A DNA stretch of 26,275 nt from Thermincola sp. (GTDB lineage: Bacteria > Bacillota > Thermincolia > Thermincolales > UBA2595): NCBI GenBank assembly GCA_032027005.1, contig JAVSMW010000006.1, forward strand, positions 111,268-137,542, read 5' to 3'. The notes under the pieces were generated by a model. That model saw only the letters and a list, made by a program, of their open reading frames with translations. It had not been told where the DNA came from and searched no databases. How positions within the stretch are numbered: the stretch's first letter is position 1; each line of letters begins with the position of its first letter. Positions 1 through 20,740 of the stretch are shown here, one piece after another. The position numbers were made by a program, and so were the translations under genes.

Positions 1-1
1 A

Positions 2-937
2 GACCTCGATAGCGGGCGGCAGACAATGGGCATCCACCGCATCCAGGTACGCGGTCCAAAACGTCTTGGAGTATACCTGGCCAGCCGGACGTCGACAGAA
101 TTTTACCGTCGGGCAGAAAAAAAGAATATGCCACTGCCCGTAGCCATTGTAGTCGGTGTCCACCCGGCGATTTTAATGGCATCAGTGGCATGGTATCCTT
201 TTGGGGACAAATTGTCCCTGGCCGGGAGCTACCTGGGGGAACCGGTCCGGCTGGTAAAAAGTTTCAGTAGTAGCCTGGAAGTTCCGTCTGAAGCAATGTT
301 TGTCATTGAGGGTGAGATTTTGCCGGGAGTTATGGAAAAGGACGGGCCTTTTGGCGAAAGTTCCGGTGTTTATGTTCCGGACATAACTAATACCATTCAG
401 GTGACCGCAATCACCATGCGGCGTGAACCGATTTTTTCCGCCTTTGTGCCATGGTCAGGCGAAGATGGGCTGGTTTTTTCTCATGCTTACGGCTCTTTTG
501 TTGTGCAAGAATTAAAGCGTTCTTTTCCGGCGGTTATTGGTCAGTGTTTTGATTTTCGATGCGGAGGATTACTGGTGGTCCAGATTGAAAGCATGGCCAG
601 AACCGAAGTGCGGCGTCTCCTTTACCATGTATTGGTCAACAACCCTTATGTGAAACAGGTTGTTGTCGTCAATGGGGATGTCGACATCTTTGATCAACAG
701 GAAGTGAACTGGGCAATTCTGACCCGTAGTCAGCCGGATATTGACTGGCTGATTCTGCCGGATATCCCAGGTTCACCGATTGATCCTTCGACGAGGCAAG
801 GGACGGGGTCCAAAGTGGGAATCGATGCTACTTATCCACCGGAAAAAGAGGAGATCTTTGCCAAAGTTGCACCGCCTGAACAGGCCCGGGCCAGGGCGAA
901 GGAAATTTTGGGCAAGGCCGGTTTTAATGTGGGCTAA
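2..937 (+). CDS. UbiD-family (prFMN-dependent) decarboxylase, C-terminal ~310 aa; the 5' end is off the left edge of the window
   Basis: The frame is open from nt 2, with no stop before the ATG at 26. UbiD hallmark blocks are present: MGIHRIQV, MPLPVAIVVGVHPA, VIEGEILPG..KDGPFGESSGVY, ITMRREPIF, VVVVNGDVDIFD..VNWAILTR, GIDATYP. It is shorter and more canonical than the other paralogues here. Confidence 0.85.
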   Translation, partial: DLDSGRQTMGIHRIQVRGPKRLGVYLASRTSTEFYRRAEKKNMPLPVAIVVGVHPAILMASVAWYPFGDKLSLAGSYLGEPVRLVKSFSSSLEVPSEAMFVIEGEILPGVMEKDGPFGESSGVYVPDITNTIQVTAITMRREPIFSAFVPWSGEDGLVFSHAYGSFVVQELKRSFPAVIGQCFDFRCGGLLVVQIESMARTEVRRLLYHVLVNNPYVKQVVVVNGDVDIFDQQEVNWAILTRSQPDIDWLILPDIPGSPIDPSTRQGTGSKVGIDATYPPEKEEIFAKVAPPEQARARAKEILGKAGFNVG

Positions 938-1115
938 AAAGCTTAGCCTGCTCCAGTTTTGATGTAATGAGTTATTGATGTTATGCTTGTACAAATTTTT
1001 TATCAGGATATTTCGTATGCAAAATAATTCTCTGAAGAAAATCTTTTCGGCGTAAATACCATTGGAAACAGGCGATAATCGCGTTTAAGTGATGAAATGG
1101 AGGAGGGCGCTAAGT

Positions 1116-2540
1116 ATGAATTATAGGCAATTCCTGGATTGTTTAGAACGGCAGGGGGAGTTAAAACAGGTAGACCGGGAAGTGGATTGGAACCTGGAGG
1201 CGGCGGCGGTTTTGGCCATGGTTTACCGGATGGAAGGACCGGCAGTACTGTTCAATAAGATCAAGGGTTATCCGCCGGGATACCGGATGGCCGGAGCTCT
1301 ATACTCGGGACCGCGCCGCCAGCCGTGGCGGAAATTGGCCATGGCGCTGGACATCGACCCCGACGGCGGTTACCGGAAATGGCTGGAGGAGTTTAATCGC
1401 CGCCTGGATCATCCGATCAAACCGGTAGTTGTTCCGGATGGACTCTGCAAGGAAGTAATTCTTACCGGCGAGGAGGCGGATATCTTTAAACTGCCTATTC
1501 CGTACCTGCATTTAGGCGACGGGGGCCGTTACGGCGGCACGCTGCCGGTAACCGTCACGCGTCACCCGGTCCGGGACTGGGTCAACGCCGGCAACTACCG
1601 CTGGATGGCCCATGACAAACACAGGCTGGGTGGAGACTTTCAGCCAGGACAGCATATGGCGGATATGTATTTTGTTTACGAAAAAAAGGGTGAAGCTATG
1701 CCGTTCTGTATGGCCATGGGTGTCAACCCGGCCCTGGATATTGCCGCAGGGGTTTCTTTACCGGTAGGAGCTAATGAATATGACGTGGCGGGGGGACTGC
1801 AGGAAGAGCCTCTCCAACTGGTGAAAGCCGAAACCAACGATCTGCTGGTCCCGGCGGATGCCGAGATCATCATCGAAGGTGAAGTGCGACCGCATGAAAG
1901 GCTCGAAGAAGGTCCCTTCGGCGAGTATGACGGCTTTATGACTACGCGGCTTCCCCAACCGGTCTACCACATTAAAGCTATAACCCACCGCCGGAATCCG
2001 ATCTTGCCGGTAGCTCCGGAAGGGTATCGCTTCAATGATACCGGTGCCATGTCGTGCGCCATCCTCTCGCCGGTCCTGCAGTGGCGGCTGGAAAAAGATG
2101 GCTTTAATGATGTATTGTTTTACAATATCCCGGAGGCTTCCTGGGCGTGGCCGGTGGTGGCCACCAAGCCTATTTCCGATACCGACCTGGGGAAATTAGT
2201 TTCTGCCGTCTGGTCGGTACCGACCATGGGGTGGCTGGATAAACTGTTGCTGGTTGATGAGGATGTGGATATTACCAGTACCGAGGAACTTCTAGAGATT
2301 TTGGGTACCCGCCTGCAAGCGGATCGGGTATATCAGAGCAAACCCAATAAACCCATCTCCTTTATTGCCGCTTGGGCTACAGAAGAAGAGCTGCGGCGGG
2401 GTCTGGCCAACGCTTTGACGTATGATTGTGTTACGCGGCCGGAGGAGGACAAACCGGAGAAAATAACCATTGAAACCCTGTTGACGCCGGCAACGCGGGA
2501 ATGGCTGGACAATTTTTGGCTCCGGGCAGTTTCCCAGTAA
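1116..2540 (+). CDS. UbiD-like carboxylase/decarboxylase, alpha-type (module A)
   Basis: The ORF runs 1089..2540. I prefer the ATG at 1116 because GGAGGAGGG sits 8 nt upstream. UbiD blocks: FLDCLERQGEL, HLGDGGRY, WVNAGNYR, MPFCMAMGVNPA, NDLLVPADAEIIIEGEV..EEGPFGEYDGF, ITHRRNPILP, LLLVDEDVDI. Confidence 0.9.
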   Translation: MNYRQFLDCLERQGELKQVDREVDWNLEAAAVLAMVYRMEGPAVLFNKIKGYPPGYRMAGALYSGPRRQPWRKLAMALDIDPDGGYRKWLEEFNRRLDHPIKPVVVPDGLCKEVILTGEEADIFKLPIPYLHLGDGGRYGGTLPVTVTRHPVRDWVNAGNYRWMAHDKHRLGGDFQPGQHMADMYFVYEKKGEAMPFCMAMGVNPALDIAAGVSLPVGANEYDVAGGLQEEPLQLVKAETNDLLVPADAEIIIEGEVRPHERLEEGPFGEYDGFMTTRLPQPVYHIKAITHRRNPILPVAPEGYRFNDTGAMSCAILSPVLQWRLEKDGFNDVLFYNIPEASWAWPVVATKPISDTDLGKLVSAVWSVPTMGWLDKLLLVDEDVDITSTEELLEILGTRLQADRVYQSKPNKPISFIAAWATEEELRRGLANALTYDCVTRPEEDKPEKITIETLLTPATREWLDNFWLRAVSQ

Positions 2541-2597
2541 ACGGCGGGAAAGGCCGCAAGATTTACAAGTAAATAAATGAGGTAAAGGAGGATAATT

Positions 2598-4145
2598 ATG
2601 CTTTTCCGGGATTTTCTCGACGAACTTAAGCGCTGCGGTGAATTAACCGAAATAGCGGAAAAGATACATTGGGACCAGGAAGTGGCTGCGGTTACTGCCA
2701 TGTCCCAGCAGAAGGGTGGGGCGGCCCTCCATTTTACTCAAGTGCAGGACGGAAACGGTTCGTCGCTGGTTGGAGCTCTGTTTTCCGGACCGGGTACTTT
2801 ATACGGCAATCCTGGCGGTAGGACCCCTTGGACGAAGATGGCCATCGCGCTCGGTTTTAATCGCGATATTTCCTACGAGGAATTATGCGAGGAGTTACTC
2901 AAACGCCGGGAGCGACCGATGCGCCCTACTGTGGTCTCTTCGGGACCGTGCAAAGAGGTGGTAAAAGTTGACGATGAGGCGAGTCTTGCCGATTTTCCCT
3001 TTCCCAGGCACTACGCCAAGGACGGAGGCCGTTACCTGACGGCGGGCGTACTGGCAGTGAAAGATTATTACGGTCGCTGGGCTAACTGGGGAGTGTATCG
3101 CGCCATGGTGCTTTCGCCACGCGAACTGGTAGTCAACATCAGCCCTGAATCCCAGGCCGGTCGGCTGCTCGCGGAATACGAACAGCACGGCAAGCCGATG
3201 CCCTGCTGCTTCTTTTTAGGAGGTAATCCCGCGGCTTTTGTCGCCGCGGCGGCACCGGTGCCTGAAGGCATCTGGGAGGCGGAAATGGCGGGTGCGTACA
3301 TCCAAAATCCGCTGGAACTGACCAGCGCGGTAACCAACGACCTGCTGATCCCGGCAGATGCCGAAATGGTAATCGAAGGAATGATTATGCCGGGCGAGCG
3401 CCATGCCGAGGGCCCGTTCCCGGAATACGTCAGGTATGCTCCACCCCGGCCCCGGCCAGTGATGCGGATAACTGCAATTACCCACCGCAAAAGTCCGGTG
3501 CTTCCATTCGTAGCCGAAGGTTGCAAGGTGAGTGATTCCATGGCGCTGCGCTCAGTGCTGGCTTCCGTTGAACTGCTGTACAAAGTGCGCACTCAGACCC
3601 AGCTTCGGGTCAGGTGGATCTACCTGCCGGTAGAGAGTCGGCTTTCAATTTGCGTGGTCGGGTGTGATCCTTTCTATCGGGGGCACAACTTCTGGGTAGC
3701 CAATGTACTTAGCCGGTACAAGGAGATGGCCTGGTTTGACAAAATCCTGATGGTGGACAGCGACATTAATCCGTCGGACATGACGGAAGTAGTAAACGAT
3801 TGGGCTCAGAAAACCAGGCCCGAAAAAGGTTATGGCTTCTGGGCGGAAGAATATTCCCACGCTGCTGGGCGCACCGCCGCTTATGCCGGGGAAGGGGAAC
3901 CGACGCGAACGGTTGTCTGGGACTGTTGCTGGGACGATAGCTGGAAAAAAGAACAGATCAGGGCCAGGGTCAGTTTTGAAAGCTCCTTCCCGACGGAACT
4001 CCAGGAGAAGGTGGTCAGTTTCTGGCCCGAGTACGGGCTGCCCGGCAAACCGTTTAAAAAACTTGTAGAGCCTTCCTGGACCCGCGGGCCGCTGCACCCG
4101 CCTGAATTCACAAAAATACCGGGAATAGGAGGTGAAGACCAGTGA
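2598..4145 (+). CDS. UbiD-like protein, divergent beta-type (module A)
   Basis: AAGGAGG lies 6 nt before the ATG at 2598. UbiD fold blocks are kept: FRDFLDELKRCGEL, AKDGGRY, WANWGVYR, NDLLIPADAEMVIEG, ITHRKSPVLPF, ILMVDSDIN. The acidic loop reads EGPFPEYVRYA (nt 3408-3440) instead of EGPFGEYxGY. The C-terminal extension RVSFESSFPTELQEKVVSFWPEYGL is shared only with 8211..9707. Confidence 0.88.
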   Translation: MLFRDFLDELKRCGELTEIAEKIHWDQEVAAVTAMSQQKGGAALHFTQVQDGNGSSLVGALFSGPGTLYGNPGGRTPWTKMAIALGFNRDISYEELCEELLKRRERPMRPTVVSSGPCKEVVKVDDEASLADFPFPRHYAKDGGRYLTAGVLAVKDYYGRWANWGVYRAMVLSPRELVVNISPESQAGRLLAEYEQHGKPMPCCFFLGGNPAAFVAAAAPVPEGIWEAEMAGAYIQNPLELTSAVTNDLLIPADAEMVIEGMIMPGERHAEGPFPEYVRYAPPRPRPVMRITAITHRKSPVLPFVAEGCKVSDSMALRSVLASVELLYKVRTQTQLRVRWIYLPVESRLSICVVGCDPFYRGHNFWVANVLSRYKEMAWFDKILMVDSDINPSDMTEVVNDWAQKTRPEKGYGFWAEEYSHAAGRTAAYAGEGEPTRTVVWDCCWDDSWKKEQIRARVSFESSFPTELQEKVVSFWPEYGLPGKPFKKLVEPSWTRGPLHPPEFTKIPGIGGEDQ

Positions 4146-5074
4146 GCGAAAAACATGCTGCCGGATTACGGGAGTTGCAGGCGGTAAATATCAGCATGAG
4201 CTGCGATCTTGCTTGCGAGCGCTGCGAACGGTTTTTTGACTGCGAGGCTCCCCAGAAGCACGATATCTACAAGCGGGGGCGGATGGAAAAAGCCCGCCGG
4301 AATATGGAAAGAGTGCGCTATAAAATAGCTATTGTTGGGGGAAAGGGCGGGGTTGGCAAATCGACCCTGACGGCTAACCTGGCCTGTGCTCTGGCTAACG
4401 ACGGTAACCGGACCAGCGTTCTGGACCAGGATTTCGACGGGCCGACCATTCCGCGCATGCTGGGGGTAACTGATAAAAAAATGATGTTTTCCGAAAAGGG
4501 CATCCAGCCCGTGGAGGGGATATTGGGGATCCAGGTGGTTTCGACAGGCTGTGTTGTCGGCACCGATGAGGTGCTGACCTGGTTTCATGACATGCGGCGG
4601 GGCGCCACTGAGGAATTCCTGGCTCACGTGGATTACGGGGAACGGGATTACCTGCTGATCGACCTGCCGCCAGGGACCAGCTCGGATTCGGTAAACCTTA
4701 TGCAGTATATTCCCGACCTGGCCGGGGCAATTATTATTACCGTTCCCTCTGATGTATCCCAGGTAGTGGCCCGCAAGGCCGCACTGCTCTGCGGGAAAGC
4801 GGGAGTACCGATTCTGGGTGTGGTTGAAAACATGAGCGGGTTTGTTTGTCCTGACTGCGGGCGAGTAGTCAATATTTTCCGTAGCGGAGGAGGAGAAAAA
4901 CTCGCCGAATCTCTGGGTGTTCCTTTCATGGGGAATATTCCCCTTGATGCCAAGCTCAGTGATGCGGCGGACAGTGGCCGACCTTATGTCTTAGATTACC
5001 CGGATAGCCCTGCGTCCAAAGCTTTGCAAGGGATAGCTGCTTACTTGAGGGAGATACTGGAAAAGAAGAATTAA
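4142..5074 (+). CDS. Mrp/Nbp35-family P-loop ATPase with N-terminal 4-Cys motif (paralogue 1 of 5)
   Basis: The GTG start overlaps the upstream stop (GTGA), and AGGAGGTG lies 7 nt upstream. It has the deviant Walker A GGKGGVGKST and DLPPGTSSD (canonical Mrp has DxPPGTGD). The N-terminal motif is C21-x3-C25-x2-C28-x5-C34 (nt 4202-4243). A C-terminal CPDCG is present. Confidence 0.9.
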   Translation: MSEKHAAGLRELQAVNISMSCDLACERCERFFDCEAPQKHDIYKRGRMEKARRNMERVRYKIAIVGGKGGVGKSTLTANLACALANDGNRTSVLDQDFDGPTIPRMLGVTDKKMMFSEKGIQPVEGILGIQVVSTGCVVGTDEVLTWFHDMRRGATEEFLAHVDYGERDYLLIDLPPGTSSDSVNLMQYIPDLAGAIIITVPSDVSQVVARKAALLCGKAGVPILGVVENMSGFVCPDCGRVVNIFRSGGGEKLAESLGVPFMGNIPLDAKLSDAADSGRPYVLDYPDSPASKALQGIAAYLREILEKKN

Positions 5075-5082
5075 TTTTTTAT

Positions 5083-5115
5083 GGCCGGTTGAGGTATCGA
5101 CCGGCCTGCTATTTT
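5083..5115 (+). terminator. Rho-independent terminator candidate ending module A
   Basis: The stem GGCCGGT (5083-5089) pairs with ACCGGCC (5100-5106) around a 10-nt loop. It is followed by TGCTATTTT. Confidence 0.6.
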
Positions 5116-5238
5116 GTGCGCTCGTTATGGTTGTTAAAAGTTAAAAAAAGAAAATAATCTTGTCTTAAGAGGTTAGAACCGTTAAAGCTTAATTTTGTCC
5201 AATTTAACCTATGATTTGTGCAGTTGCCAACTTAATAA

Positions 5239-5266
5239 TTGTCTAAATGCAAAGATGTTATATAAT
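5239..5266 (+). promoter_or_regulatory. SigA-type promoter candidate (cassette copy 1)
   Basis: TTGTCT (5239-5244), a 16-nt spacer, then TATAAT (5261-5266). Confidence 0.45.
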
Positions 5267-5381
5267 TAAAACACACTTAATCTGGAAATTAACAAAATAA
5301 TAATAGCATTAAATTAGCGTGCGAACTGGGACCTGTTGTGGCGGGGGAGTGAATGGATTCGGCGGTTTGATTGCAAAACAA

Positions 5382-5395
5382 GTTCGTATACGAAC
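5382..5395. promoter_or_regulatory. Perfect 14-bp palindrome GTTCGTATACGAAC, candidate operator
   Basis: The sequence is self-complementary. Related copies lie at 6047-6060, 6069-6082, 16174-16187 and, more weakly, 16238-16251. Confidence 0.5.
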
Positions 5396-5732
5396 AAAAC
5401 TGGTGAATATTTAATACATATAAAGTGATTTCCGGCTATAAAATAAATGAACTCCAGATATGGTCTAATATCAGGGAACGGCAAAAAATGCTCGAAATAT
5501 TACAGGAATGGGAATGCGTAGATAACTTTGAACACTGTATTCGTAGAAAATCCGGAGAAACAATTTGTGAGATACTTGCGGTGTGGCTTATGACAATGAC
5601 AAGTATCACAGTTTCAGAGTGTTTTAGGAAGAAAAAAAGGGGGTAGATGAAAATGAAAATAAATACTATTAACCGTTAAATCTCAATTTTGTTCAATTTA
5701 ACCTAAGATTTGTGCAGTTGCCAACAAAATAA

Positions 5733-5760
5733 TTGCCTAGAAATAACGATGTTATATAAT
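5733..5760 (+). promoter_or_regulatory. SigA-type promoter candidate (cassette copy 2), likely driving 5845..6069 and module B
   Basis: TTGCCT (5733-5738), a 16-nt spacer, then TATAAT (5755-5760). Confidence 0.5.
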
Positions 5761-5844
5761 TAAACCATACATAAATCTGGAAACTGAAAAAAATAATAGT
5801 ATTTAACTAGCGTGCGAACAATTTGTGAACAGGAGGTGAAATTG

Positions 5845-6069
5845 ATGTTTAAAAAACAAAATACTACAATACCTAAAATGGGAGAAAAACTAGCAAAAAT
5901 TACCGAAGCAATTGCCGAAAAGGAAAACTCAAGAATCGAAGAAAAAACTTACCGTAGAAATTGTTATGAGGTTTTTCCATTTCTGACTGGAACCTGTTGT
6001 GGCGGGGGAGGGGATGGATTCGGCGGTTTGTTTGATTACAAAACTAGTTCGTATACAAACAAAAACTAG
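5845..6069 (+). CDS. Small hypothetical protein (74 aa) with a Cys/Gly-rich C-terminal segment (GTCCGGGGDGFGGLFDY)
   Basis: AGGAGGTG (5831-5838) lies 6 nt before the ATG at 5845, downstream of the promoter candidate. I recognise no domain. The 3' third lies in repeat part B and runs into the operator-like repeats. Confidence 0.4.
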   Translation: MFKKQNTTIPKMGEKLAKITEAIAEKENSRIEEKTYRRNCYEVFPFLTGTCCGGGGDGFGGLFDYKTSSYTNKN

Positions 6070-6082
6070 TTCGTATACAAAC
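6047..6082. promoter_or_regulatory. Two tandem operator-like sites GTTCGTATACAAAC with starts 22 bp apart
   Basis: The direct repeat AAAACTAGTTCGTATACAAACA occurs twice (sites 6047-6060 and 6069-6082). Each site is a 13/14 match to the 5382 palindrome. Confidence 0.5.
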
Positions 6083-6277
6083 AAAAAAAGTTCTCGCACA
6101 ATCAAAAATTATTCGCATCCGAAGCTAGGATAAGTTTTCGGGACCAGGGTGGCGAAAATGTGTGGGAAATTTAAATAAAAATAATATTTGCCAATTTAAG
6201 AAGGGGGTGAAGCTTATGTTGTGAAGAACTTCAGTGGAGCCCGAATAAAACACATTAATAGGAGGTGCACAACTTTA

Positions 6278-15151: not shown

Positions 15152-16158
15152 TGGCAATAATTAAAAAGAAAACTAATAATATTAAGAAAATTACTTCATT
15201 CAATGTTAATCTTTCATGTGTTATTGATGAAGAAAGTGGCCGTATCGCCTGCGAGAAGTGCGAAAAGTTTTTTGACTGCAAGGAACAAAGCAAGTGGGAC
15301 GTTTATAAACATGGGCGGCTAGCGCTGGCCCAGCGGAAAATGTCGTCAATTAAACATAAAATTGCCATTGTTGGCGGCAAGGGTGGCGTGGGCAAGACCA
15401 TGCTGGCCGTCAACATTGCCGCCGGACTGGCCAAGCGCGGGAAACGGGTGGCGGTCCTTGATTCCGATTATGACGGGTCCAGCGTCCCGAGGATGCTGGG
15501 GGTGGCTGATAAAAAGCTTTATATGGGTGCACAGGGTATTGAACCGGTGGAAGCTTTGCTGGGTATCAAGGTGGTTTCCATGGGGAACCTGAGGAATGAT
15601 AACGATATTGTTACGTGGTATTCCGATAGCCGACGGGGAGCCACAGAAGAGTTTATTACTCATGTCAACTATGGTGAGCTTGATTACTTGATTGTTGATT
15701 TGCCGCCGGGCACCAGCGCCGACACGGTGAACAGCATGCTGTTTATCCCGGATATGACCGGTATTGTCTTCATTACTGTTCCTTCCGAGGTTTCTCAGGG
15801 GGTAGCCTTACGGGCTGCTACGATCTGCGGCAAGGGCGGCGTCAAAGGAATCGGGATTGTTGAGAATATGAGCGGTCATGTCTGCCGGCACTGCGATCAT
15901 CGTTCCGAGATATATTCTACAGGGGGCGGAGAAAAACTCGCCGAAGCTACGGGAATACCACTGATCGGCAAGTTGCCGGTTGAAGGTTATGCCGGTATGG
16001 CCTGTGATGAAGGTGTACCGTTTGTGGTCGCCTACCCGGAAAGCGCATCCGCCAAAATTATGGAAAAAGTTGTTGATAAAATAGAAGAAGAAGTTCTTAC
16101 CAGTAGACGCGATTTGAGCCACCTTAACACGGATTACGGAAAACGCTCCTGGTGGTAA
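15151..16158 (+). CDS. Mrp/Nbp35-family P-loop ATPase with N-terminal 4-Cys motif (paralogue 5)
   Basis: An ATGA overlap with the upstream stop suggests translational coupling. It has GGKGGVGKTM, DLPPGTSAD, C23-x10-C34-x2-C37-x5-C43 and CRHCD. Confidence 0.88.
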   Translation: MAIIKKKTNNIKKITSFNVNLSCVIDEESGRIACEKCEKFFDCKEQSKWDVYKHGRLALAQRKMSSIKHKIAIVGGKGGVGKTMLAVNIAAGLAKRGKRVAVLDSDYDGSSVPRMLGVADKKLYMGAQGIEPVEALLGIKVVSMGNLRNDNDIVTWYSDSRRGATEEFITHVNYGELDYLIVDLPPGTSADTVNSMLFIPDMTGIVFITVPSEVSQGVALRAATICGKGGVKGIGIVENMSGHVCRHCDHRSEIYSTGGGEKLAEATGIPLIGKLPVEGYAGMACDEGVPFVVAYPESASAKIMEKVVDKIEEEVLTSRRDLSHLNTDYGKRSWW

Positions 16159-16173: not shown

Positions 16174-16187
16174 GTTCGTATAAGAAC
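16174..16187. promoter_or_regulatory. Operator-like site GTTCGTATAAGAAC (13/14 match to the 5382 palindrome)
   Basis: It lies in the 248-bp gap upstream of the small-protein/UbiD/ligase/UbiX module. A weaker copy, TTTTGTATATGAAC, lies at 16238-16251. Confidence 0.45.
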
Positions 16188-16406
16188 AATAAAGTACTCT
16201 GGGAGAGTTCTGATTAAGGGGAGGTGATAAAAACGTTTTTTGTATATGAACACAAAAGTAAACCGGGGGAATCGGAGGGGAGGTGAAAATAAAGAAAAAT
16301 TTTAAGACGATTGACAGGAAGAGGATAAGTTATCTAGGGTTTTGCTTCACACGTTGCGGGAATAATTTGTTTATTTAATTTAAAAAGCAAAGGAGGAGAG
16401 GTTTTA

Positions 16407-16787
16407 ATGTACGAAAAACCGTCAAACCGTTTGGAAATCCATAAAAATTTTACTTTTGGACCTGATCCTGATGAATTGAAAAAGCAGGAAGGCCGGGAGG
16501 TTTACGATGTAATCATCCTGTCGGACTCCATTGATGAGCTTACCAGTCAACAGAATCAGGAAATTACGCTAGCCATCAGGTTGCTTACTCCTAAAGACAG
16601 AAAGATGAGGTACTGCACTAGGACGGTCAGTGCGATGATCAGCAGCGATCCGACCAAATACCGTGATCGTTTGCATGTGCGGTTCCAGCGGGGGTTATTG
16701 CATCCGAAACCCTGGAGTATTGAAATTGTTAAAGAACTTGAGGGCTTGATGAGCTTGGAAGCCGATCACACCATAGCACGTTCTTAA
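16407..16787 (+). CDS. Small hypothetical protein (126 aa) immediately upstream of a UbiD gene (the abcD position by synteny)
   Basis: AAGGAGGAGAGG lies upstream and the next gene follows after 22 nt. I recognise no domain by eye. The assignment rests only on gene order. Confidence 0.6.
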   Translation: MYEKPSNRLEIHKNFTFGPDPDELKKQEGREVYDVIILSDSIDELTSQQNQEITLAIRLLTPKDRKMRYCTRTVSAMISSDPTKYRDRLHVRFQRGLLHPKPWSIEIVKELEGLMSLEADHTIARS

Positions 16788-16809
16788 ATATTGATAGAAA
16801 GGAAAGGTG

Positions 16810-18345
16810 ATGTCCAAGATGTATCGTGATTTAAGAGGATATATTGACGCATTGGAAAAAAACAACCAGTTAGTCAGAACCAATAAAGAAGTGGACTGGG
16901 ATCTTGAAGCCGGCGCCATAGCCCGGCTTGGTTACCAGTTAGACTCAAAAGCCATGTTGATGGAAAATATTAAAGATTATCCTGGTTTCCGGTATCTGGG
17001 TGGTGTATTTAGCAACTGGCAGCGGGCAGCGATCGCCATCGGGCTAAATCCTAACGCCTCCCGGCGCGAAATCCAGGATACATATCGCGAAAGGCTGGAC
17101 CATCCGATTAAGCCAATTATTATTGAGGATGCTCCCTGTCAGGAAAATGTCATTACCGATGAAGACGTCAACCTGTTCGACCTGCCGGCCCCCATGGTTC
17201 ACGACGGTGATGGCGGCAGATACCCAACTACCTGGTCTTTTGTAGCCACTCCTTCATATAACACCGACTGGATCAACTGGGGGATGTACCGCCAGATGAT
17301 TCATAACGAAAGGACATTGGGCGGCCTGGTGCTGCCTTCCCAGGATATTGGTATCCAGTATTACGGTGGCTGGGAACCAGCAGGTGAAAAGATGCCCTTT
17401 GCCGCTGTGATTGGCGGTGAGGTATTGACCACTGCTGTGGCTGCCGTTCCCTACGGAGTTGGACGGAGCGAGGTTGATTTCGCCGGGGGCTTGCTCCTGG
17501 AGCCGGTGGAGTTGGTCAAGTGCGTTTCAGTTGACCTTCTGGTCCCGGCCAATGCCGAAATCATTATTGAAGGATATGTCAGCCCGAAAGAACGCTGCTA
17601 TGAAGGGCCTTTCGGAGAGTATACCGGTTACCGGACTTCGCCGCGGATGCCGCGGGTGGCCTACCACGTGACCGCCATTACTTACCGCGATAACGCTATT
17701 ATGCCCTTTTCTAATATGGGCGTGCCGACAGATGAATGCGATATGATCGCCAATACGCTCTGGCGGGCCGACCTGATGCGGGTTCTGGAAGAAAACGGTA
17801 TACCGGTACTTGATGTATCGATGCCGACGGAAATGGTTATGCACTCAGCATTCATTTCCATCAAGAAACCTTACAGCAGTATTCCCAATAAGGTAGCTAA
17901 GCTGATCTTCGGTGAAAAGAATACTGGTCTTTTCCTTCACCAGATTTATGTTTGCGATGAGGATGTTGATGTTCAGGATCTATCTCAGGTTATGCATGTT
18001 TTTGCCACAAAATGGCATCCGAAACGGGGAACGCATTTCTTCGACAAGACGGTCGGCGTGCCGCTGCACCCATTCCTTGACATGGAAGAGAGAACCTGGA
18101 GCAAGGCATCTAAGGTTTGCTTTGACTGCACCTGGCCCAGCGAATGGTCGCCTACGGCGGAAGTCCCGGTCCGCTCCAGCTTCTGGGATATTTACCCAGA
18201 ACGGGTTATAGAAAAGGTCTGCAGCACCTGGAAGGAGTTTGGCCAAGATCAGGATATGCTGTCGGCACTGGCAGATTACAACCGCATCGGTCGTTGGCCT
18301 GGTAGTGAGACTTTTAATAAACCGGTAGTGACCAAGAAAAAGTAG
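16810..18345 (+). CDS. UbiD-like carboxylase, alpha-type (AbcA-like by synteny)
   Basis: The ORF starts at 16807. ATG 16810 or ATG 16819 could be the start, and AAAGGAAAGG lies upstream. UbiD blocks: LRGYIDALEKNNQL, HDGDGGRY, WINWGMYR, MPFAAVIGGE, LLVPANAEIIIEGYV..YEGPFGEYTGYR, ITYRDNAIMPF, IYVCDEDVDV. Confidence 0.9.
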   Translation: MSKMYRDLRGYIDALEKNNQLVRTNKEVDWDLEAGAIARLGYQLDSKAMLMENIKDYPGFRYLGGVFSNWQRAAIAIGLNPNASRREIQDTYRERLDHPIKPIIIEDAPCQENVITDEDVNLFDLPAPMVHDGDGGRYPTTWSFVATPSYNTDWINWGMYRQMIHNERTLGGLVLPSQDIGIQYYGGWEPAGEKMPFAAVIGGEVLTTAVAAVPYGVGRSEVDFAGGLLLEPVELVKCVSVDLLVPANAEIIIEGYVSPKERCYEGPFGEYTGYRTSPRMPRVAYHVTAITYRDNAIMPFSNMGVPTDECDMIANTLWRADLMRVLEENGIPVLDVSMPTEMVMHSAFISIKKPYSSIPNKVAKLIFGEKNTGLFLHQIYVCDEDVDVQDLSQVMHVFATKWHPKRGTHFFDKTVGVPLHPFLDMEERTWSKASKVCFDCTWPSEWSPTAEVPVRSSFWDIYPERVIEKVCSTWKEFGQDQDMLSALADYNRIGRWPGSETFNKPVVTKKK

Positions 18346-18469
18346 AATGAAGGGTTAAAAAAAGTATTCATGGTTTCTGGTTGTTAAACATGAGCAGGTA
18401 CAGAAGATGATTTTTAAAATGGAAAACGTAACTTTTGTGCCTGCTCAGACTAATTTTAAAGGTGGTGGA

Positions 18470-20032
18470 ATGATGACCGGGGGTAGCTTGATAATTCCTG
18501 AAAATTATAACGCTGTATCTTTTTTCGTTGACCGTCACCTGGCCGAAGGGCGTGGAGATAAGACGGCAATCTATTACCTGGATCAAAAGATTTCCTACCG
18601 GGAAGTAGCCGAAAATGTCAACAAAACGGGCAATGCCTTTTTAAATCTCGGAATTGAAACGGAGGACAGGATTCTTCTTTTACTTCTGGATTGTCCGGAA
18701 TTTGTTTACAGCTTTTTTGGCGCCATTAAAATCGGAGCTGTTCCTATACCCACCAATACGATGCTTAAGCCTACCGATTACGAATACCTTTTAAAAGACA
18801 GCCGGGCTAAGGCAATTGTTGTCAGTGAGGAACTGATTGAAAATATTAATGAAATTTCCAGCAACTTGCCCTCTGTTGAGCATATTATCGTCGTCGGTCG
18901 GTCGGGGCCGGGACAATTGAGTTTTCATAATCTTATTAAAAATGCCTCTCCGGTATTGAGCTTGGCTCCGACCATCAAGGATGATCCCTGTTTCTGGCTA
19001 TATAGTTCCGGCACCACTGGCTTCCCCAAAGGAGCAGTTCACTTGCAACATGATATGGTTTACTGTGCGGAGAACTATGCCCAAAAAGTTCTTAATATCA
19101 ATGAAGATGATGTGACATTTTCCGTAGCCAAGCTGTTTTTTGCTTACGGCCTGGGTAACGGGCTTTACTTTCCGTTCTCAGTGGGAGCGGCTACAGTTTT
19201 ATCTCCCCAACGTCCACTGCCTGAACATGTTTTTGAAGTTATTGAACGATACCGGCCAACGCTTTTCTTTGGTGTTCCGACTTCGTATTACGCTCTCCTA
19301 CAGTTAGCCGAGAAAGAAAACAAATATGATTTGAGTTCCATCCGTTTATGTGTTTCAGCAGGAGAAGCACTGCCGGAAATTATCTATCAACGCTGGATGG
19401 AAGAATTTGGCCTGGTAATTTTAGACGGTATCGGCTCGACCGAAATATTACACATCTTTATTTCCAACCAGCCCGGAGAGGTAAAACCCGGGAGCAGCGG
19501 CCGTCTGGTCCCTGGCTATGAAGCAAAAATCCTTGATGAGGATGGATGTGAAGTATCAACTGAAGAACAGGGGACCCTTTATATTAAAGGAGACAGCATT
19601 GCTTCTTATTATTGGAATAAACACGAAAAAAGCAAGCAGACTTTTGTTGGCGAATGGATCAATACCGGCGACAGGTATTACCGGGATAAGGATGGATATT
19701 TTTGGTATATGGGACGCGGGGATGATATGATTAAGAGCGGCGGGATTTGGGTGTCTCCGGTCGAGGTGGAAAGCACTTTGCTGCAGCACACGGCTGTTTT
19801 GGAGTGTGCCGTAACCGGGTGGGCCGATTCCGACGGGCTAATCAAACCCAAAGCCTTTGTGGTGCTGAAGCAAAACTCTCACGGAAACCAGGCCTTGGTG
19901 GAGGAGTTGCAGCAATTTGTCAAAAACAAAATTGCTCCGTACAAGTACCCGCGCTGGCTAGAATTTATTGATGAACTTCCGAAAACCGCTACCGGAAAGA
20001 TTCAAAGGTATAAGCTCCGGCAAGGGGGATAG
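18470..20032 (+). CDS. Aryl-CoA ligase (AMP-forming) of the benzoate-/4-hydroxybenzoate-CoA ligase subfamily
   Basis: The ORF starts at 18407. I prefer ATG 18470 or 18473, after AAAGGTGGTGG. Motifs: YSSGTTGFPKGAVH, YNAVSFFVDRHLAEGRGDKTAI, WINTGDRYYRDKDGYFWYMGRGDDMIKSGGIWVSPVEVE, PKTATGKIQR. Confidence 0.88.
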   Translation: MMTGGSLIIPENYNAVSFFVDRHLAEGRGDKTAIYYLDQKISYREVAENVNKTGNAFLNLGIETEDRILLLLLDCPEFVYSFFGAIKIGAVPIPTNTMLKPTDYEYLLKDSRAKAIVVSEELIENINEISSNLPSVEHIIVVGRSGPGQLSFHNLIKNASPVLSLAPTIKDDPCFWLYSSGTTGFPKGAVHLQHDMVYCAENYAQKVLNINEDDVTFSVAKLFFAYGLGNGLYFPFSVGAATVLSPQRPLPEHVFEVIERYRPTLFFGVPTSYYALLQLAEKENKYDLSSIRLCVSAGEALPEIIYQRWMEEFGLVILDGIGSTEILHIFISNQPGEVKPGSSGRLVPGYEAKILDEDGCEVSTEEQGTLYIKGDSIASYYWNKHEKSKQTFVGEWINTGDRYYRDKDGYFWYMGRGDDMIKSGGIWVSPVEVESTLLQHTAVLECAVTGWADSDGLIKPKAFVVLKQNSHGNQALVEELQQFVKNKIAPYKYPRWLEFIDELPKTATGKIQRYKLRQGG

Positions 20033-20087
20033 CTTCTCAAATATTGTTCTATGTAAATACTTGGACAGGAAAATGGAGGGATGAAGA

Positions 20088-20681
20088 ATGAAAAAGCTTG
20101 TTGTGGGGATATCCGGCGCAACAGGTGCCATTTACGGAATCAGACTATTGGAAGTACTACGCGAACTTGAGGTAGAGACGCATCTGGTTGTATCTGAAGG
20201 AGCGGCGCGGACTATCCGGATGGAAACGCAGTATGAATTTTCCGAAGTGACCAAGTTAGCTACACATGTTTATGACATTAAAAATGTCGGAGCTTCCATA
20301 GCAAGCGGATCTTTTCCAATCGATGGTATGGCTATCGTTCCCTGTTCCATTAAAAGTCTTTCGGCTTTGGCTAACTCTTACAATGATAATTTGTTAATTA
20401 GGGCGGCCGATGTTAACCTTAAAGAAAAAAGGAAAGTAGTGGTTATGGTTCGGGAGACGCCGTTGCATGTCGGCCACCTGCGCCTGATGATGCAGGTGGC
20501 CGAAGCCGGCGGGGTTATTCTTCCTCCAATGCCTGCTTTTTACCACCAGCCCCGGAGCCTCCAGGAAATAATTGATCAAACAATAGGGAAAGTTCTGGAT
20601 CAATTTGGTTTAGATGGTAAACTTTTTTCTCGATGGGAAGGCAGCGGAATATTAAGGTCTGTCAGCAAAAAAAGCATTTAG
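20088..20681 (+). CDS. ubiX: Flavin prenyltransferase UbiX (prFMN synthase)
   Basis: MKKLVVGISGATGAIYGIRLLEVL, MAIVPCSIKSLSALANSY.DNLLIRAADV.LKE.RK, PPMPAFYH. These form a classic UbiX/Pad1 pattern, and the protein is 197 aa. Confidence 0.93.
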   Translation: MKKLVVGISGATGAIYGIRLLEVLRELEVETHLVVSEGAARTIRMETQYEFSEVTKLATHVYDIKNVGASIASGSFPIDGMAIVPCSIKSLSALANSYNDNLLIRAADVNLKEKRKVVVMVRETPLHVGHLRLMMQVAEAGGVILPPMPAFYHQPRSLQEIIDQTIGKVLDQFGLDGKLFSRWEGSGILRSVSKKSI

Positions 20682-20690
20682 GGAAGTAAA

Positions 20691-20740
20691 CAGGGCCGCT
20701 TTAGAAATCTTTGAATATGTAAGCGGCCCTGTTATTTACT
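20691..20740 (+). terminator. Rho-independent terminator candidate ending the carboxylase locus
   Basis: A perfect 11-bp stem, CAGGGCCGCTT (20691-20701) with AAGCGGCCCTG (20721-20731), encloses a 19-nt loop. The tail is TTATTT. Confidence 0.65.

What the first reader, a model, noticed from the sequence alone, without database searches (positions are those of the whole stretch)
1..20740. Super-cluster of six UbiD paralogues, five Nbp35/Mrp-like ATPases, small subunits, an aryl-CoA ligase and UbiX: candidate multi-module arene carboxylase locus
Seen in sequence: about 20 kb of co-directional, tightly packed genes, several with 4-nt overlaps, and only three convincing terminators (5083, 20691, 21885).

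The recurring parts list is alpha-type UbiD, beta-type UbiD, one or two P-loop Fe-S-type ATPases, and a small protein of about 100-130 aa. The locus ends with a benzoate-CoA-ligase-type enzyme and UbiX.

Established knowledge: UbiD enzymes use prFMN made by UbiX and catalyse reversible (de)carboxylation of aromatic or unsaturated acids. Heteromeric UbiD-type complexes are known for phenylphosphate carboxylase. UbiD-like genes are the candidates for anaerobic benzene and naphthalene carboxylation. As I recall, ParA/MinD-like ATPase genes sit in the naphthalene carboxylase cluster of culture N47.

Inference: the locus encodes several paralogous carboxylases for unactivated or poorly activated aromatics, with the product acid then thioesterified by the ligase. 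The number of paralogues and the 1:1-2 pairing with Nbp35-like ATPases go beyond anything I know to be biochemically characterised.
Basis: partly seen in the sequence, partly recalled or inferred. Interest (0 to 1): 0.88.

Follow-up and report, generated by a model that had tools for sequence, protein, structure and literature searches.

The report
Thermincola putative benzene carboxylase supercluster
This is the already published gene cluster that benzene-degrading, oxygen-free Thermincola bacteria are thought to use to attach CO2 to benzene; read in full it holds six UbiD-type enzymes, six iron-sulfur ATPases and four small subunits, but the chemistry itself has still not been demonstrated.

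Summary
On the + strand the window carries six UbiD genes (the first cut by the window edge), five Mrp/Nbp35-type ATPases, four small proteins, a benzoate-CoA-ligase-family gene and ubiX. A sixth ATPase and a MarR gene lie just upstream of the window.

The locus is not new. The window is identical to contigs of the NRBC nitrate-reducing, benzene-degrading culture (Thermincola/Thermincolales MAG). Its proteins are identical to those on the metatranscript "contig-100_0" of a Dutch benzene culture. There, genes 6-9 are the published ubiX, bzlA, abcA and abcD, 96-98% identical to culture BF (2010).

- The UbiDs fall into the four subunit classes of the N47 naphthalene carboxylase, with the beta/beta' pair duplicated.
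- U5 lacks the catalytic residues.
- All ATPases carry an Nbp35-like N-terminal four-cysteine motif and a C-terminal CxxC.
- Three, probably all four, small proteins are PpcC-gamma paralogues.
- A GTTC-N6-GAAC operator-like repeat precedes three transcription units.
- Minimal gamma-alpha-2xMrp modules exist in other phyla.

Most likely function: an ATP-coupled, prFMN-dependent benzene carboxylase, followed by benzoate-CoA ligation. Benzene carboxylation remains biochemically unproven.

Novelty: already known. Interest: moderate.

The parts
2..937 (+). U1: UbiD of the HmfF / N47_K27460 class. Its 5' end lies outside the window; full length is 443 aa.
   Evidence: Pfam UbiD and UbiD_C. Full gene is L086 7009-8340. 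Best PDB match is HmfF 6h6x, 287 bits. Groups with the K27460 clade in the NJ tree. Motif is DGPFGE.
1116..2540 (+). U2: UbiD of the beta class (N47_K27500 class), with a canonical active-site motif.
   Evidence: Pfam. Motifs NAGNYR, E and EGPFGE. Groups with U4 and K27500.
2598..4145 (+). U3: UbiD of the beta' class (N47_K27480 class). Motif is EGPFPE, with both Glu residues kept.
4142..5074 (+). M1: Mrp/Nbp35-type Fe-S P-loop ATPase. It overlaps U3 by 4 nt.
   Evidence: PF10609 E 2e-77. N-terminal CDLACERCERFFDC, GKGGVGKS and CPDC.
5083..5106 (+). Terminator hairpin that closes module A.
   Evidence: 10-bp stem with 7 GC pairs. Free energy -21.3 kcal/mol, z -5.5.
5107..6277 (+). AT-rich control region. 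It holds a tandemly duplicated promoter-like unit, TTCGTATACGAA-type repeats at 5383, 6048, 6070 and 6112, and a 74-aa ORF at 5845-6069.
   Evidence: GC 0.34. Sequence. Motif count of 9 against 0.99 expected. The peptide core is conserved in a relative with mostly synonymous changes.
6278..7822 (+). U4: UbiD of the beta class, with a canonical motif. The N47 orthologue K27500 has lost the Arg.
7889..8185 (+). h98: small subunit sitting where K27490 sits in N47; probably a distant gamma-like protein.
   Evidence: hhalign against the h131 family gives 78.6% probability, E 1.7e-5; against the gamma family only 9%.
8211..9707 (+). U5: UbiD of the beta' class with a degenerate active site; probably non-catalytic.
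   Evidence: SWSDER replaces NxGxYR, the metal-binding Glu is absent, and the motif is EGPYPN. The UbiD_C match is below threshold. The sequence is identical to the culture-BF-era UniParc entry.
9801..10730 (+). M2: Mrp/Nbp35-type ATPase, orthologue of N47_K27520.
   Evidence: 57% identity. Tree and motifs. It is gene contig-100_0_18, reported as 99% identical to BF D8WWN7.
10774..11697 (+). M3: Mrp/Nbp35-type ATPase, orthologue of N47_K27510.
   Evidence: 52% identity. Tree. Identical to contig-100_0_17.
11773..12141 (+). h122: small subunit of the N47_K27470 / NPH_5862 family; related to the gamma family.
   Evidence: BLASTP E 1e-4 and 6e-6. hhalign against the gamma family gives 94.2% probability, E 1e-7.
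12186..12389 (+). Zn67: FmdB-family zinc-ribbon protein.
   Evidence: TIGR02605, 49.6 bits. Transcribed.
12421..12858 (+). CTP-dependent-riboflavin-kinase-like protein. Inferred role: supply of FMN for prFMN synthesis.
   Evidence: PF01982 E 4e-29. Scores are below the NCBIfam equivalog cut-offs. The gene recurs next to ubiX in many UbiD loci.
12930..13607 (+). HAD-IA hydrolase.
   Evidence: PF13419. HAD genes also follow the N47 cluster. Absent from the relative L001.
13670..14065 (+). h131: a second PpcC-gamma-like small subunit.
   Evidence: hhalign against the gamma family gives 97.7% probability, E 2.3e-12.
14102..15151 (+). M4: Mrp/Nbp35-type ATPase.
   Evidence: PF10609. Motifs. Best PDB match is Cfd1 6g2g. 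Of its 119 best homologues, 116 share the N-terminal four-Cys motif.
15151..16158 (+). M5: Mrp/Nbp35-type ATPase, overlapping M4 by 1 nt.
16174..16251 (+). Two GTTC-N6-GAAC-type operator-like repeats upstream of abcD.
   Evidence: Hits at 16175 and 16239. The same position is conserved in L002, L090 and L001.
16407..16787 (+). AbcD: PpcC-gamma-like small subunit.
   Evidence: PF09662, 30.8 bits against a cut-off of 25. It is contig-100_0_9, reported as 97% identical to BF AbcD.
16810..18345 (+). AbcA (U6): alpha-type UbiD, the presumed catalytic subunit.
   Evidence: TIGR02723 scores 431 bits, below the 564.6 cut-off. Canonical motifs. The fragment of contig-100_0_8 is identical, and the authors report that gene as 98% identical to BF AbcA.
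18407..20032 (+). BzlA: benzoate-CoA-ligase-family enzyme.
   Evidence: TIGR02262, 670.9 bits. PDB matches: anthranilate-CoA ligase 4wv3 and benzoate-CoA ligases 2v7b and 4eat.
20088..20681 (+). UbiX flavin prenyltransferase.
   Evidence: NF004685, 265.5 bits. Identical to contig-100_0_6.
20685..20740 (+). Hairpin directly after ubiX.
   Evidence: Free energy -24.7 kcal/mol, z -5.4. The U-tail is weak.
20785..21816 (+). HAD-like plus MarR fusion regulator.
   Evidence: MarR E 8e-10 and HAD_2 E 7e-6. The fusion is conserved after ubiX in L002, L001 and L090.
21884..21922 (+). Hairpin directly after the regulator gene.
   Evidence: Free energy -18.1 kcal/mol, z -5.35.

Best explanation
Identity. 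The window is the putative anaerobic benzene carboxylase (Abc) locus of benzene-degrading Thermincola (Thermincolales UBA2595), as sequenced from the NRBC culture.

Proposed working, with the basis of each step marked.
1. Cofactor supply (inferred from family membership). UbiX, helped by the riboflavin-kinase-like and HAD proteins, supplies prenylated FMN.
2. Carboxylation (inferred by analogy to the published proposal for N47 naphthalene carboxylase). A heteromeric UbiD enzyme binds benzene to prFMN by 1,3-dipolar cycloaddition, deprotonates it and adds CO2 to give benzoate. The enzyme is built around AbcA (alpha) and AbcD (gamma). It is probably joined by the beta/beta' pair U4/U5 and by the gamma-like proteins h98, h122 and h131.
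3. ATP coupling (inferred; the least certain step). The Nbp35-type ATPases act in pairs, M4/M5 and M2/M3, as integral partners. Each has two Fe-S-type cysteine sites. They couple ATP binding or hydrolysis, and possibly electron transfer to or from prFMN, to this endergonic reaction.
4. Pull by the ligase (family membership shown, role inferred). BzlA converts benzoate to benzoyl-CoA and so pulls the equilibrium.
5. Module A (role unknown). Mrp-MarR-U1-U2-U3-M1 is a separately terminated, duplicated beta/beta' module of the same regulon.
6. Regulation (sequence shown, binding inferred). MarR-family regulators bind GTTC-N6-GAAC repeats in front of modules A, B and C.
For: Identity.
- Window proteins are found exactly on NCBI GCA_029980345.1 JARXNP010000595.1 and GCA_029980365.1.
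- The sources name them Thermincola sp..
- JARXNP is the NRBC metagenome.
- Seven proteins compared in full length were checked against Table S3 of Atashgahi 2018. Six are identical and the HAD hydrolase differs only at its called start. The fragments shown for four more are also identical.
- That paper reports genes 6-9 as 96-98% identical to UbiX, BzlA, AbcA and AbcD of culture BF.

Expression.
- All 18 genes from M2 to the transposase lie on one assembled transcript with high read counts. In sample 2: AbcA 37338, BzlA 29797, M4 10145, M2 7456.
- The literature reports benzene-linked expression of abcA and abcD, and abcA copy number tracking benzene loss.

Subunit logic.
- BLAST, the NJ tree and hhalign map U6, AbcD, M2, M3, U4, h122, U5 and U1 onto N47_K27540-K27460. 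Apart from K27460, these are reported as the components of the N47 complex: three UbiDs, two ATPases and three linker proteins, about 750 kDa.
- Minimal gamma-alpha-2xMrp loci occur in Syntrophales, Nitrospinota and an unbinned metagenome contig.
- The whole supercluster is conserved at 53-88% identity in a second lineage.

ATPases.
- The Walker A motif and both cysteine sites are intact in all six.
- No conserved cysteine cluster that could be an Fe-S client exists in the UbiDs or the small proteins.
- Naphthalene carboxylation is ATP-stimulated and has a standard free energy of +14 kJ/mol.

Ligase. It belongs to the benzoate-CoA ligase family, not the PaaK type used for naphthoate and phenanthroate.
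Against: - No enzyme assay for benzene carboxylation exists. The 2026 literature still calls it unverified.
- One summary says the cluster is induced by benzoate as well as benzene. Another says benzene only.
- Other benzene degraders use an unrelated flavoprotein route.
- Physical association of the ATPases with UbiDs is reported only for N47, and I saw it only second-hand.
- One of three sampled members of the Mrp subfamily has no UbiD neighbour.
- ATP dependence in N47 extracts could be indirect, through the ligase.
- The relative L001/L089 lacks bzlA and the HAD gene.
- The trees are neighbour-joining without bootstrap support.
Confidence: 0.65

Rival explanations
1. One reading: modules A, B and C are three or more independent carboxylases, each UbiD(s) plus ATPase(s) plus small protein, acting on different unactivated aromatics.
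For: - Each module has its own UbiD with an intact catalytic motif: U2 (and U3), U4 and U6.
- Each module has its own Mrp proteins.
- Module A has its own MarR gene and terminator.
- Self-sufficient gamma-alpha-2xMrp units exist elsewhere.
- The GC3 of U2-U3-M1 differs from the rest of the locus.
Against: - Modules A and B lack an alpha-class UbiD, and module A has no gamma-like protein.
- In N47 the alpha, beta and beta' classes are reported to sit in one complex.
- There is only one ligase.
- The same operator-like repeat precedes all three units.
- The culture is maintained on benzene alone.
- The three modules travel together in a second lineage.
Confidence: 0.2
2. The Mrp/Nbp35 ATPases are not catalytic subunits. 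[quoted passage not shown]
For: - The family is best known as Fe-S carriers: closest PDB matches are Cfd1 and Fe-S carrier proteins, and the best NCBIfam model is MrpORP.
- The physiological oxidant for prFMN maturation in strict anaerobes is unknown.
- The later, carboxyl-exchange steps of naphthalene carboxylation need no ATP.
Against: - Six copies, expressed within a few-fold of AbcA per unit length, is a lot for chaperones.
- There is no cysteine-rich client in the locus.
- The ATPases are reported as members of the N47 complex.
- The 1-nt and 4-nt overlaps with neighbouring genes suggest stoichiometric production.
Confidence: 0.3
3. The locus does not activate benzene. It (de)carboxylates another aromatic acid or a phenolic intermediate, and its expression in benzene cultures is secondary.
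For: - UbiD enzymes are mostly decarboxylases.
- U1 resembles HmfF and VdcC.
- One account reports induction by benzoate.
- U6 gives its best equivalog hit to PpcA.
Against: - U6 scores below the PpcA equivalog cut-off, 431 against 564.6 bits.
- There are no phenylphosphate synthase genes in the window or its flanks.
- Published summaries report that AbcA and AbcD are not made on phenol.
- abcA abundance tracks benzene loss.
- The nearest characterised system acts on naphthalene.
Confidence: 0.12

Closest known systems
Putative anaerobic benzene carboxylase cluster abcD-abcA-bzlA-ubiX (culture BF, Abu Laban 2010; NRBC, Luo 2014; Dutch culture, Atashgahi 2018)
   Same: It is the same locus. The gene order is the same. 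The proteins are identical to the Dutch transcripts and 96-99% identical to BF according to the authors. The source organism is the same.
   Different: Published descriptions centre on four genes plus 'MarR and an MRP homologue'. The window and its flank show six UbiD, six Nbp35-type ATPases, four gamma-like proteins, cofactor-supply genes and a shared operator-like repeat.
Naphthalene carboxylase cluster N47_K27540-K27460 (and NaphS2 NPH_5855-5865)
   Same: It has the same subunit classes: alpha, gamma, two Mrp, beta, linker, beta', linker and a K27460-type UbiD. HAD and IS4 genes lie nearby. Reported features are a complex of about 750 kDa, stimulation by ATP and a proposed prFMN cycloaddition.
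   Different: - Identities are only 30-57%.
- The gene order is rearranged, with the beta module first and the alpha module last.
- The beta/beta' pair is duplicated.
- There are six rather than two cluster Mrp proteins, and two extra gamma-like proteins.
- U4 keeps the catalytic Arg that K27500 has lost.
- The ligase is benzoate-CoA-ligase type, not PaaK type.
Phenylphosphate carboxylase PpcABCD (Thauera / Aromatoleum)
   Same: It is a heteromeric UbiD enzyme with alpha and beta subunits and a PpcC gamma subunit. AbcA lies in the same alpha clade at about 44% identity.
   Different: - The substrate there is pre-activated by phosphorylation.
- Those loci have no Mrp ATPases.
- AbcA, AbcD and the beta-type UbiDs all score below the Ppc equivalog cut-offs.
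- No pps genes are present here.
Nbp35/Cfd1, Mrp/ApbC and MrpORP Fe-S carrier ATPases
   Same: The PF10609 fold, the deviant Walker A motif, the C-terminal CxxC and an Nbp35-like N-terminal four-Cys motif.
   Different: - Scores are below the MrpORP and ApbC equivalog cut-offs.
- The subfamily has its own signature, CxxC-x-[KR]-[FY]-[FY]-[DE]-C.
- Members are repeatedly encoded inside UbiD carboxylase loci.
- No Fe-S client is evident in the locus.
HmfF (2,5-furandicarboxylate decarboxylase) and VdcC-type UbiDs
   Same: U1 matches HmfF at E 3e-84 and groups with N47_K27460.
   Different: This applies to U1 only. The VdcC model scores far below its cut-off, 264 against 650 bits. The role of U1 in the locus is unknown.

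Membership tests
UbiD (prFMN-dependent (de)carboxylase) family | Three-domain UbiD architecture (UbiD_N, Rift-related domain, UbiD_C) | tested here: met
   All six match PF01977 at E 1e-37 to 1e-67. The U5 C-domain is below threshold. U1 is complete in L086.
UbiD (prFMN-dependent (de)carboxylase) family | Catalytic and metal-binding residues: N-x-G-x-Y-R, the metal Glu, and E-G-P-F-G-E | tested here: inconclusive
   Met in U2, U4 and U6. Variant in U3 (EGPFPE) and U1 (DGPFGE). Not met in U5 (SWSDER, no metal Glu, EGPYPN).
UbiD (prFMN-dependent (de)carboxylase) family | Binds prFMN and catalyses (de)carboxylation | not testable with these tools
   Needs biochemistry.
Putative benzene carboxylase Abc locus (culture BF type) | Near-identity to AbcA, AbcD, BzlA and UbiX of culture BF | tested here: met
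   This is indirect. The window proteins are identical to contig-100_0 proteins, which the authors report as 96-98% identical to D8WWP7-D8WWQ0. BF-era UniParc entries fall in the same 90% clusters.
Putative benzene carboxylase Abc locus (culture BF type) | Synteny Mrp-abcD-abcA-bzlA-ubiX-MarR | tested here: met
Putative benzene carboxylase Abc locus (culture BF type) | Benzene-dependent expression | not tested
   Literature only. Table S3 shows high co-expression in a benzene culture but has no contrast condition.
Putative benzene carboxylase Abc locus (culture BF type) | Converts benzene plus CO2 to benzoate | not testable with these tools
   Never shown in vitro, according to the 2026 literature.
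N47-type naphthalene carboxylase complex | Subunit set: alpha UbiD, gamma, two Mrp, beta UbiD, linker, beta' UbiD, linker | tested here: met
   BLAST orthology, NJ trees, and small-protein BLAST and hhalign. The equivalent of h98 (K27490) is only positional.
N47-type naphthalene carboxylase complex | Works with a PaaK-type 2-naphthoate-CoA ligase; the substrate is naphthalene | tested here: not met
   The ligase belongs to the benzoate-CoA ligase family. PAH ligases are PaaK-like. The source culture grows on benzene.
Phenylphosphate carboxylase PpcABCD | Scores at or above the NCBIfam equivalog cut-offs for the alpha, beta and gamma subunits | tested here: not met
   Alpha 431 against 564.6 bits. 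Beta at most 181 against 469. Gamma 32.5 against 135.6.
Phenylphosphate carboxylase PpcABCD | Linked phenylphosphate synthase genes (ppsABC) | tested here: not met
   None in the window or in 10-kb flanks.
Mrp/Nbp35 Fe-S P-loop ATPases | PF10609 fold with deviant Walker A motif GKGGxGK[ST] | tested here: met
   All six.
Mrp/Nbp35 Fe-S P-loop ATPases | C-terminal CxxC (bridging-cluster site) and Nbp35-type N-terminal four-Cys site | tested here: met
   All six have both. The N47 K27520 orthologues have C-E-C instead.
Mrp/Nbp35 Fe-S P-loop ATPases | Equivalog to MrpORP or ApbC; carries and transfers Fe-S clusters | tested here: not met
   For the sequence test, M1 scores 251.5 against 450 (MrpORP) and 192.9 against 348 (ApbC), and M0 scores 209 against 450. 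Cluster binding itself is not testable here.
Benzoate-CoA ligase family (TIGR02262) | Score above the curated cut-off | tested here: met
   670.9 against 375.25 bits. PDB benzoate-CoA ligases match at E 1e-135 to 1e-146. Substrate specificity cannot be read from sequence.
UbiX flavin prenyltransferase | Score above the curated cut-off | tested here: met
   NF004685 265.5 against 188 bits; TIGR00421 254.1 against 108.9.
PpcC gamma-subunit family (PF09662) | Pfam gathering score, or a profile-profile match | tested here: met
   AbcD scores 30.8 against 25 bits. h131 matches at 97.7% and h122 at 94.2% by hhalign. h98 is inconclusive.

The most novel reading that the evidence does not exclude
The Nbp35-type ATPases, each with two Fe-S-type cysteine sites, are obligatory energy- or redox-coupling subunits. 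That would define a distinct class of ATP-dependent prFMN arene carboxylases.
- The minimal unit of this class is gamma + alpha-UbiD + two Mrp, seen on its own in Syntrophales, in Nitrospinota and on an unbinned metagenome contig.
- Thermincola combines three such co-regulated modules into one benzene-activating machine.
- The ATPases may also solve the open problem of how strict anaerobes generate or regenerate the oxidised prFMN iminium without O2.
Probability: 0.4. Interest if true: 0.8.

Novelty: already known. Interest (0 to 1): 0.4.

Why it matters
How benzene, the most inert common pollutant, is activated without oxygen is a decades-old open question. This locus is the leading candidate for the carboxylation route, and abcA is already used as a field biomarker.

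The finding itself rediscovers that locus. The value added here is a fuller parts list and testable structure:
- Which UbiDs can be catalytic: U2, U4 and U6, and possibly U1 and U3. U5 probably cannot.
- Every ATPase has both Nbp35-type cluster sites.
- At least three of the four small proteins, and probably all four, belong to one gamma family.
- Which genes form the conserved minimal unit.
- A candidate MarR operator.

These points tell an experimenter which genes to co-express to reconstitute activity.

Tried and rejected
- The Rfam gathering scan of the whole window gave no hit.
- The ORM2 'Magic' benzene cluster was checked as a possible identity. It is unrelated: flavoprotein, Hdr-like and CoA-transferase genes, no UbiD.
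- The GTDB species-representative scan did not contain the source organism. The best hits were Nitrospinota at 60%. Identity came from exact-protein look-ups instead.
- Luo 2014 and Heker 2023 are not held in the library. Abu Laban 2010 and Koelschbach 2019 were seen only through other papers' summaries.
- Literature searches found no report of biochemical characterisation of benzene carboxylase.
- I looked for a conserved cysteine cluster in the UbiDs and small proteins that could be the Fe-S client of the Mrp proteins. None was found.
- The AlphaFold2 model of AbcD from 15 sequences had mean pLDDT 63.9, and Foldseek against the PDB gave nothing below E = 1. The fold is unassigned.
- The link between h98 and the gamma family is unproven: 9% directly and 78.6% through h131.
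- The CCGGGxDGFGG peptide motif was searched in all 94 loci and found only in Thermincola-type loci.
- The idea that the Mrp subfamily is exclusive to UbiD loci is rejected. A Dehalococcoidia member has no UbiD neighbour.
- My first statement that the N47 K27520 orthologues lack the C-terminal cysteine pair was wrong. They have C-E-C.

Full report
1. OBSERVATION

From position 2 to 21816 every called gene is on the + strand. Pfam and NCBIfam scans give the following order:
- U1: UbiD, 2-937, 5'-truncated by the window.
- U2: UbiD, 1116-2540.
- U3: UbiD, 2598-4145.
- M1: Mrp/NUBPL ATPase, 4142-5074.
- A 1.2-kb AT-rich gap.
- U4: UbiD, 6278-7822.
- h98: 7889-8185.
- U5: UbiD, 8211-9707.
- M2: 9801-10730.
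- M3: 10774-11697.
- h122: 11773-12141.
- A Zn-ribbon protein: 12186-12389.
- A CTP-dependent-riboflavin-kinase-like protein: 12421-12858.
- A HAD hydrolase: 12930-13607.
- h131: 13670-14065.
- M4: 14102-15151.
- M5: 15151-16158.
- A PpcC-gamma-like protein: 16407-16787.
- U6: an alpha-type UbiD, 16810-18345.
- A benzoate-CoA-ligase-family enzyme: 18407-20032.
- UbiX: 20088-20681.
- A HAD-MarR fusion: 20785-21816.

The count of six UbiD and five ATPases is therefore correct.

The three proposed terminators are all significant hairpins placed directly after stop codons, with z about -5.4.

Only one 4-nt overlap and one 1-nt overlap exist, so 'several 4-nt overlaps' is overstated.

2. IDENTITY

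Exact-sequence look-ups place the window on several assemblies:
- NCBI GCA_029980345.1 contig JARXNP010000595.1.
- NCBI GCA_029980365.1.
- JGI assemblies, including a 329-kb contig.
- Logan runs ERR4335696 and ERR4335697.

The sources name the proteins 'Thermincola sp.' (MDT3699762-781). The same 90% clusters hold sequentially numbered 2010 UniParc entries, and U5 is identical to one of them.

JARXNP is the metagenome of NRBC (Cartwright-NO3), a nitrate-reducing culture fed only benzene since 1995. [quoted passage not shown]

Table S3 of Atashgahi et al. 2018 prints the proteins of metatranscript contig-100_0. M3, h122, Zn67, the RFK-like protein, h131 and UbiX are identical to the window, and the HAD hydrolase differs only at its called start. 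The printed fragments of M4, M5, AbcA and BzlA also match exactly. The authors report genes 6, 7, 8 and 9 of that contig as 96-98% identical to UbiX, BzlA, AbcA and AbcD of culture BF, and gene 18 (M2 here) as 99% identical to BF D8WWN7.

The window is therefore the published putative anaerobic benzene carboxylase locus.

3. EXTENT

The locus continues upstream of the window with a sixth Mrp ATPase (343 aa), a MarR gene (186 aa) and the first 131 codons of U1. The full set is six UbiD, six Mrp, four small proteins, the cofactor-supply genes, one ligase and three MarR-type regulators.

4. ANATOMY OF THE UbiDs

An alignment with N47, NaphS2, Aromatoleum and Nitrospinota sequences shows the state of each active site:
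- U6, U4 and U2 have the canonical N-x-G-x-Y-R, metal-binding Glu and E-G-P-F-G-E.
- U3 has EGPFPE.
- U1 has DGPFGE.
- U5 has lost the Asn, the metal Glu and the second catalytic Glu (EGPYPN). Its N47 counterpart K27480 is also degenerate (EGPFGS).
- N47 K27500 has lost the Arg, whereas its Thermincola counterparts U4 and U2 keep it.

A neighbour-joining tree without bootstrap and BLAST give four classes:
- Alpha: U6 with the Nitrospinota genes at 60% identity, K27540 at 48% and PpcA at 44%.
- Beta: U4 and U2 with K27500.
- Beta': U5 and U3 with K27480.
- A fourth class: U1 with K27460.

Against solved structures:
- U6 and U4 are nearest to Fdc1 and HudA. They are far from phthaloyl-CoA decarboxylase, which scores 74 bits.
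- U1 is nearest to HmfF at E 3e-84.
- No close relative of U6, U4 or U1 has a solved structure.

5. ATPases

All six share three features:
- An N-terminal C-x3(10)-C-x2-C-x5-C motif, like the N-terminal cluster site of Nbp35.
- The deviant Walker A motif GKGGVGK[ST].
- A C-terminal CxxC.

The same N-terminal signature occurs in the carboxylase-linked Mrp proteins of N47, NaphS2, Nitrospinota, Syntrophales and Clostridia. It also occurs in 116 of the 119 best database homologues of M4.

In the tree, M2 and M3 are the orthologues of K27520 and K27510, and M4 and M5 pair with the two Nitrospinota ATPases. The best solved relatives are Cfd1 and Fe-S carrier proteins, but the MrpORP and ApbC equivalog cut-offs are not reached.

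I found no conserved cysteine cluster in the UbiDs or small proteins that could be an Fe-S client.

6. SMALL PROTEINS

- AbcD passes the Pfam PpcC-gamma threshold.
- The h131 family matches the gamma family by hhalign at 97.7% probability, E 2e-12.
- The h122/K27470 family matches it at 94.2%.
- h98 matches h131 at 78.6% but matches the gamma family directly at only 9%.

At least three of the four small proteins, and probably all four, are therefore gamma paralogues.

An AlphaFold2 model of AbcD was of mediocre quality (pLDDT 63.9) and had no structural match in the PDB.

7. COMPARATIVE CONTEXT

Among 79 loci encoding alpha-type UbiDs, most are phenylphosphate-carboxylase clusters without Mrp genes. 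Ten carry Mrp genes.

Module arrangements found in other organisms:
- A Syntrophales MAG has gamma-alpha-Mrp-Mrp behind a sigma-54 activator.
- A metagenome contig has Mrp-gamma-alpha-Mrp.
- Nitrospinota have Mrp-alpha-gamma-alpha'-Mrp.
- A Desulforudis contig has Mrp-Mrp-UbiD-small-UbiD-small...UbiD.
- One Dehalococcoidia member of the Mrp subfamily has no UbiD neighbour.

A second lineage (JGI 3300040748) carries the entire three-module supercluster at 53-88% protein identity, but lacks bzlA and the HAD gene.

Thermincola's locus thus looks like three parts:
- Module C: a self-sufficient alpha module, h131-M4-M5-AbcD-AbcA.
- Module B: an N47-like beta module, U4-h98-U5-M2-M3-h122.
- Module A: a duplicated beta module, M0-MarR-U1-U2-U3-M1.

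8. REGULATION AND EXPRESSION

A TTCGTATACGAA-like inverted repeat occurs 9 times in the window against 0.99 expected. Its positions are:
- Upstream of U2.
- In the gap before U4, four times.
- Twice before abcD.
- In the flank, upstream of M0.

The GTTCG(T/C)ATAAGAAC copy just after the M5 stop is conserved in four Thermincola-type lineages. It is absent from the sigma-54-regulated locus and from the N47-type loci. I infer a MarR operator and an internal promoter before abcD. This fits the roughly three-fold higher read density of AbcD, AbcA and BzlA compared with the upstream genes in Table S3.

All genes from M2 to the IS element lie on one assembled transcript in that benzene culture.

Published summaries report three further points:
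- abcA and abcD products are present on benzene but not phenol. The accounts differ on benzoate.
- abcA copy number tracks benzene loss.
- Biochemical proof of benzene carboxylation is still lacking.

9. MECHANISM

Shown here: family memberships, motif states, subunit orthology to N47, co-transcription and the ligase type.

Inferred:
- prFMN is supplied by UbiX, with the RFK-like and HAD proteins.
- Benzene undergoes cycloaddition and carboxylation on AbcA, as proposed for naphthalene.
- The Nbp35-type ATPase pairs provide ATP and possibly redox coupling.
- BzlA pulls the reaction forward. It is of the benzoate-CoA ligase type, not the PaaK type used for naphthoate and phenanthroate.

The role of the ATPases is the weakest link. 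Naphthalene carboxylation is ATP-stimulated, but possibly indirectly. The physiological oxidant for prFMN maturation in strict anaerobes is unknown, so a maturase role is a live alternative.

10. VERDICT

- Novelty: already known.
- Interest is moderate (0.4). The underlying question, anaerobic benzene activation, is important and open, and the fuller parts list defines the reconstitution experiment. A specialist would recognise the locus at once.

Noticed in passing
window 5845-6069 (+); truncated second copy at 5325-5413; relative L089 9115-9357: A 74-aa ORF lies just upstream of U4. Its Cys/Gly-rich core, PFxTGxCCGGGxDGFGGL, is conserved in the second lineage with 8 synonymous and 4 non-synonymous codon changes over 20 codons, so it is probably a real small protein. 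It has no Pfam or NCBIfam match and occurs only in Thermincola-type loci.
   Followed up: partly
window 5180-5400 versus 5670-6080; L089 8300-9100: The promoter-like unit in the AT-rich gap before U4 is tandemly duplicated (TTGTCT/TTGCCT-16-TATAAT at 5239 and 5733). The corresponding region of the relative is also duplicated.
   Followed up: partly
window 1012, 5383, 6048, 6070, 6112, 16175, 16239; L002 2105 and 2176; L090 3474; L001 9352; L089 738 and 9110: A GTTC-N6-GAAC / TTCGTATACGAA-like inverted repeat lies in the intergenic regions before U2, U4, abcD and the upstream MarR operon. Its position is conserved across four lineages. It is a candidate MarR operator.
   Followed up: partly
window 20785-21816: The regulator after ubiX is a fusion of a HAD-like domain and a MarR winged helix. 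The fusion is conserved in this position in L002, L001 and L090. The HAD-like part might be a ligand-sensing domain.
   Followed up: no
window 22172-23626 and just beyond the window end (L082 16255-17709): Two copies of an IS4-type DDE transposase bracket a MarR gene and a PAS-SpoIIE phosphatase gene. This is a composite-transposon-like arrangement directly downstream of the carboxylase locus. N47 also has an IS4 element beside its cluster.
   Followed up: no
L086 1892-4754 (- strand), upstream of the window: A diversity-generating retroelement (reverse transcriptase RVT_1, bAvd, and a target protein with the FGE-sulfatase fold) lies next to the start of the locus.
   Followed up: no
window 1116-5074: U2-U3-M1 have GC3 of 0.60-0.62, against 0.43-0.57 for most other genes of the locus and a MAG mean GC of 44.5%. 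This value resembles the GC3 of the whole cluster in the relative, which could mean a more recent acquisition of this block.
   Followed up: partly
many loci (for example L012, L017, L033, L072): A cassette of a U1-like UbiD, UbiX and a CTP-dependent-riboflavin-kinase-like gene recurs downstream of phenylphosphate-carboxylase genes. This suggests a general cofactor-supply module for prFMN.
   Followed up: no
L035 (Thermodesulfobacteriota MAG, CAZCTP010000002.1): Eleven UbiD-family genes lie in tandem within 21 kb, with no Mrp ATPase gene among them.
   Followed up: no
L007 9068-9988, L020 8482-9507, L006 10733: The N47, NaphS2 and Syntrophales orthologues of M2 (K27520 class) carry C-E-C instead of the CxxC found in all other members.
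   Followed up: no
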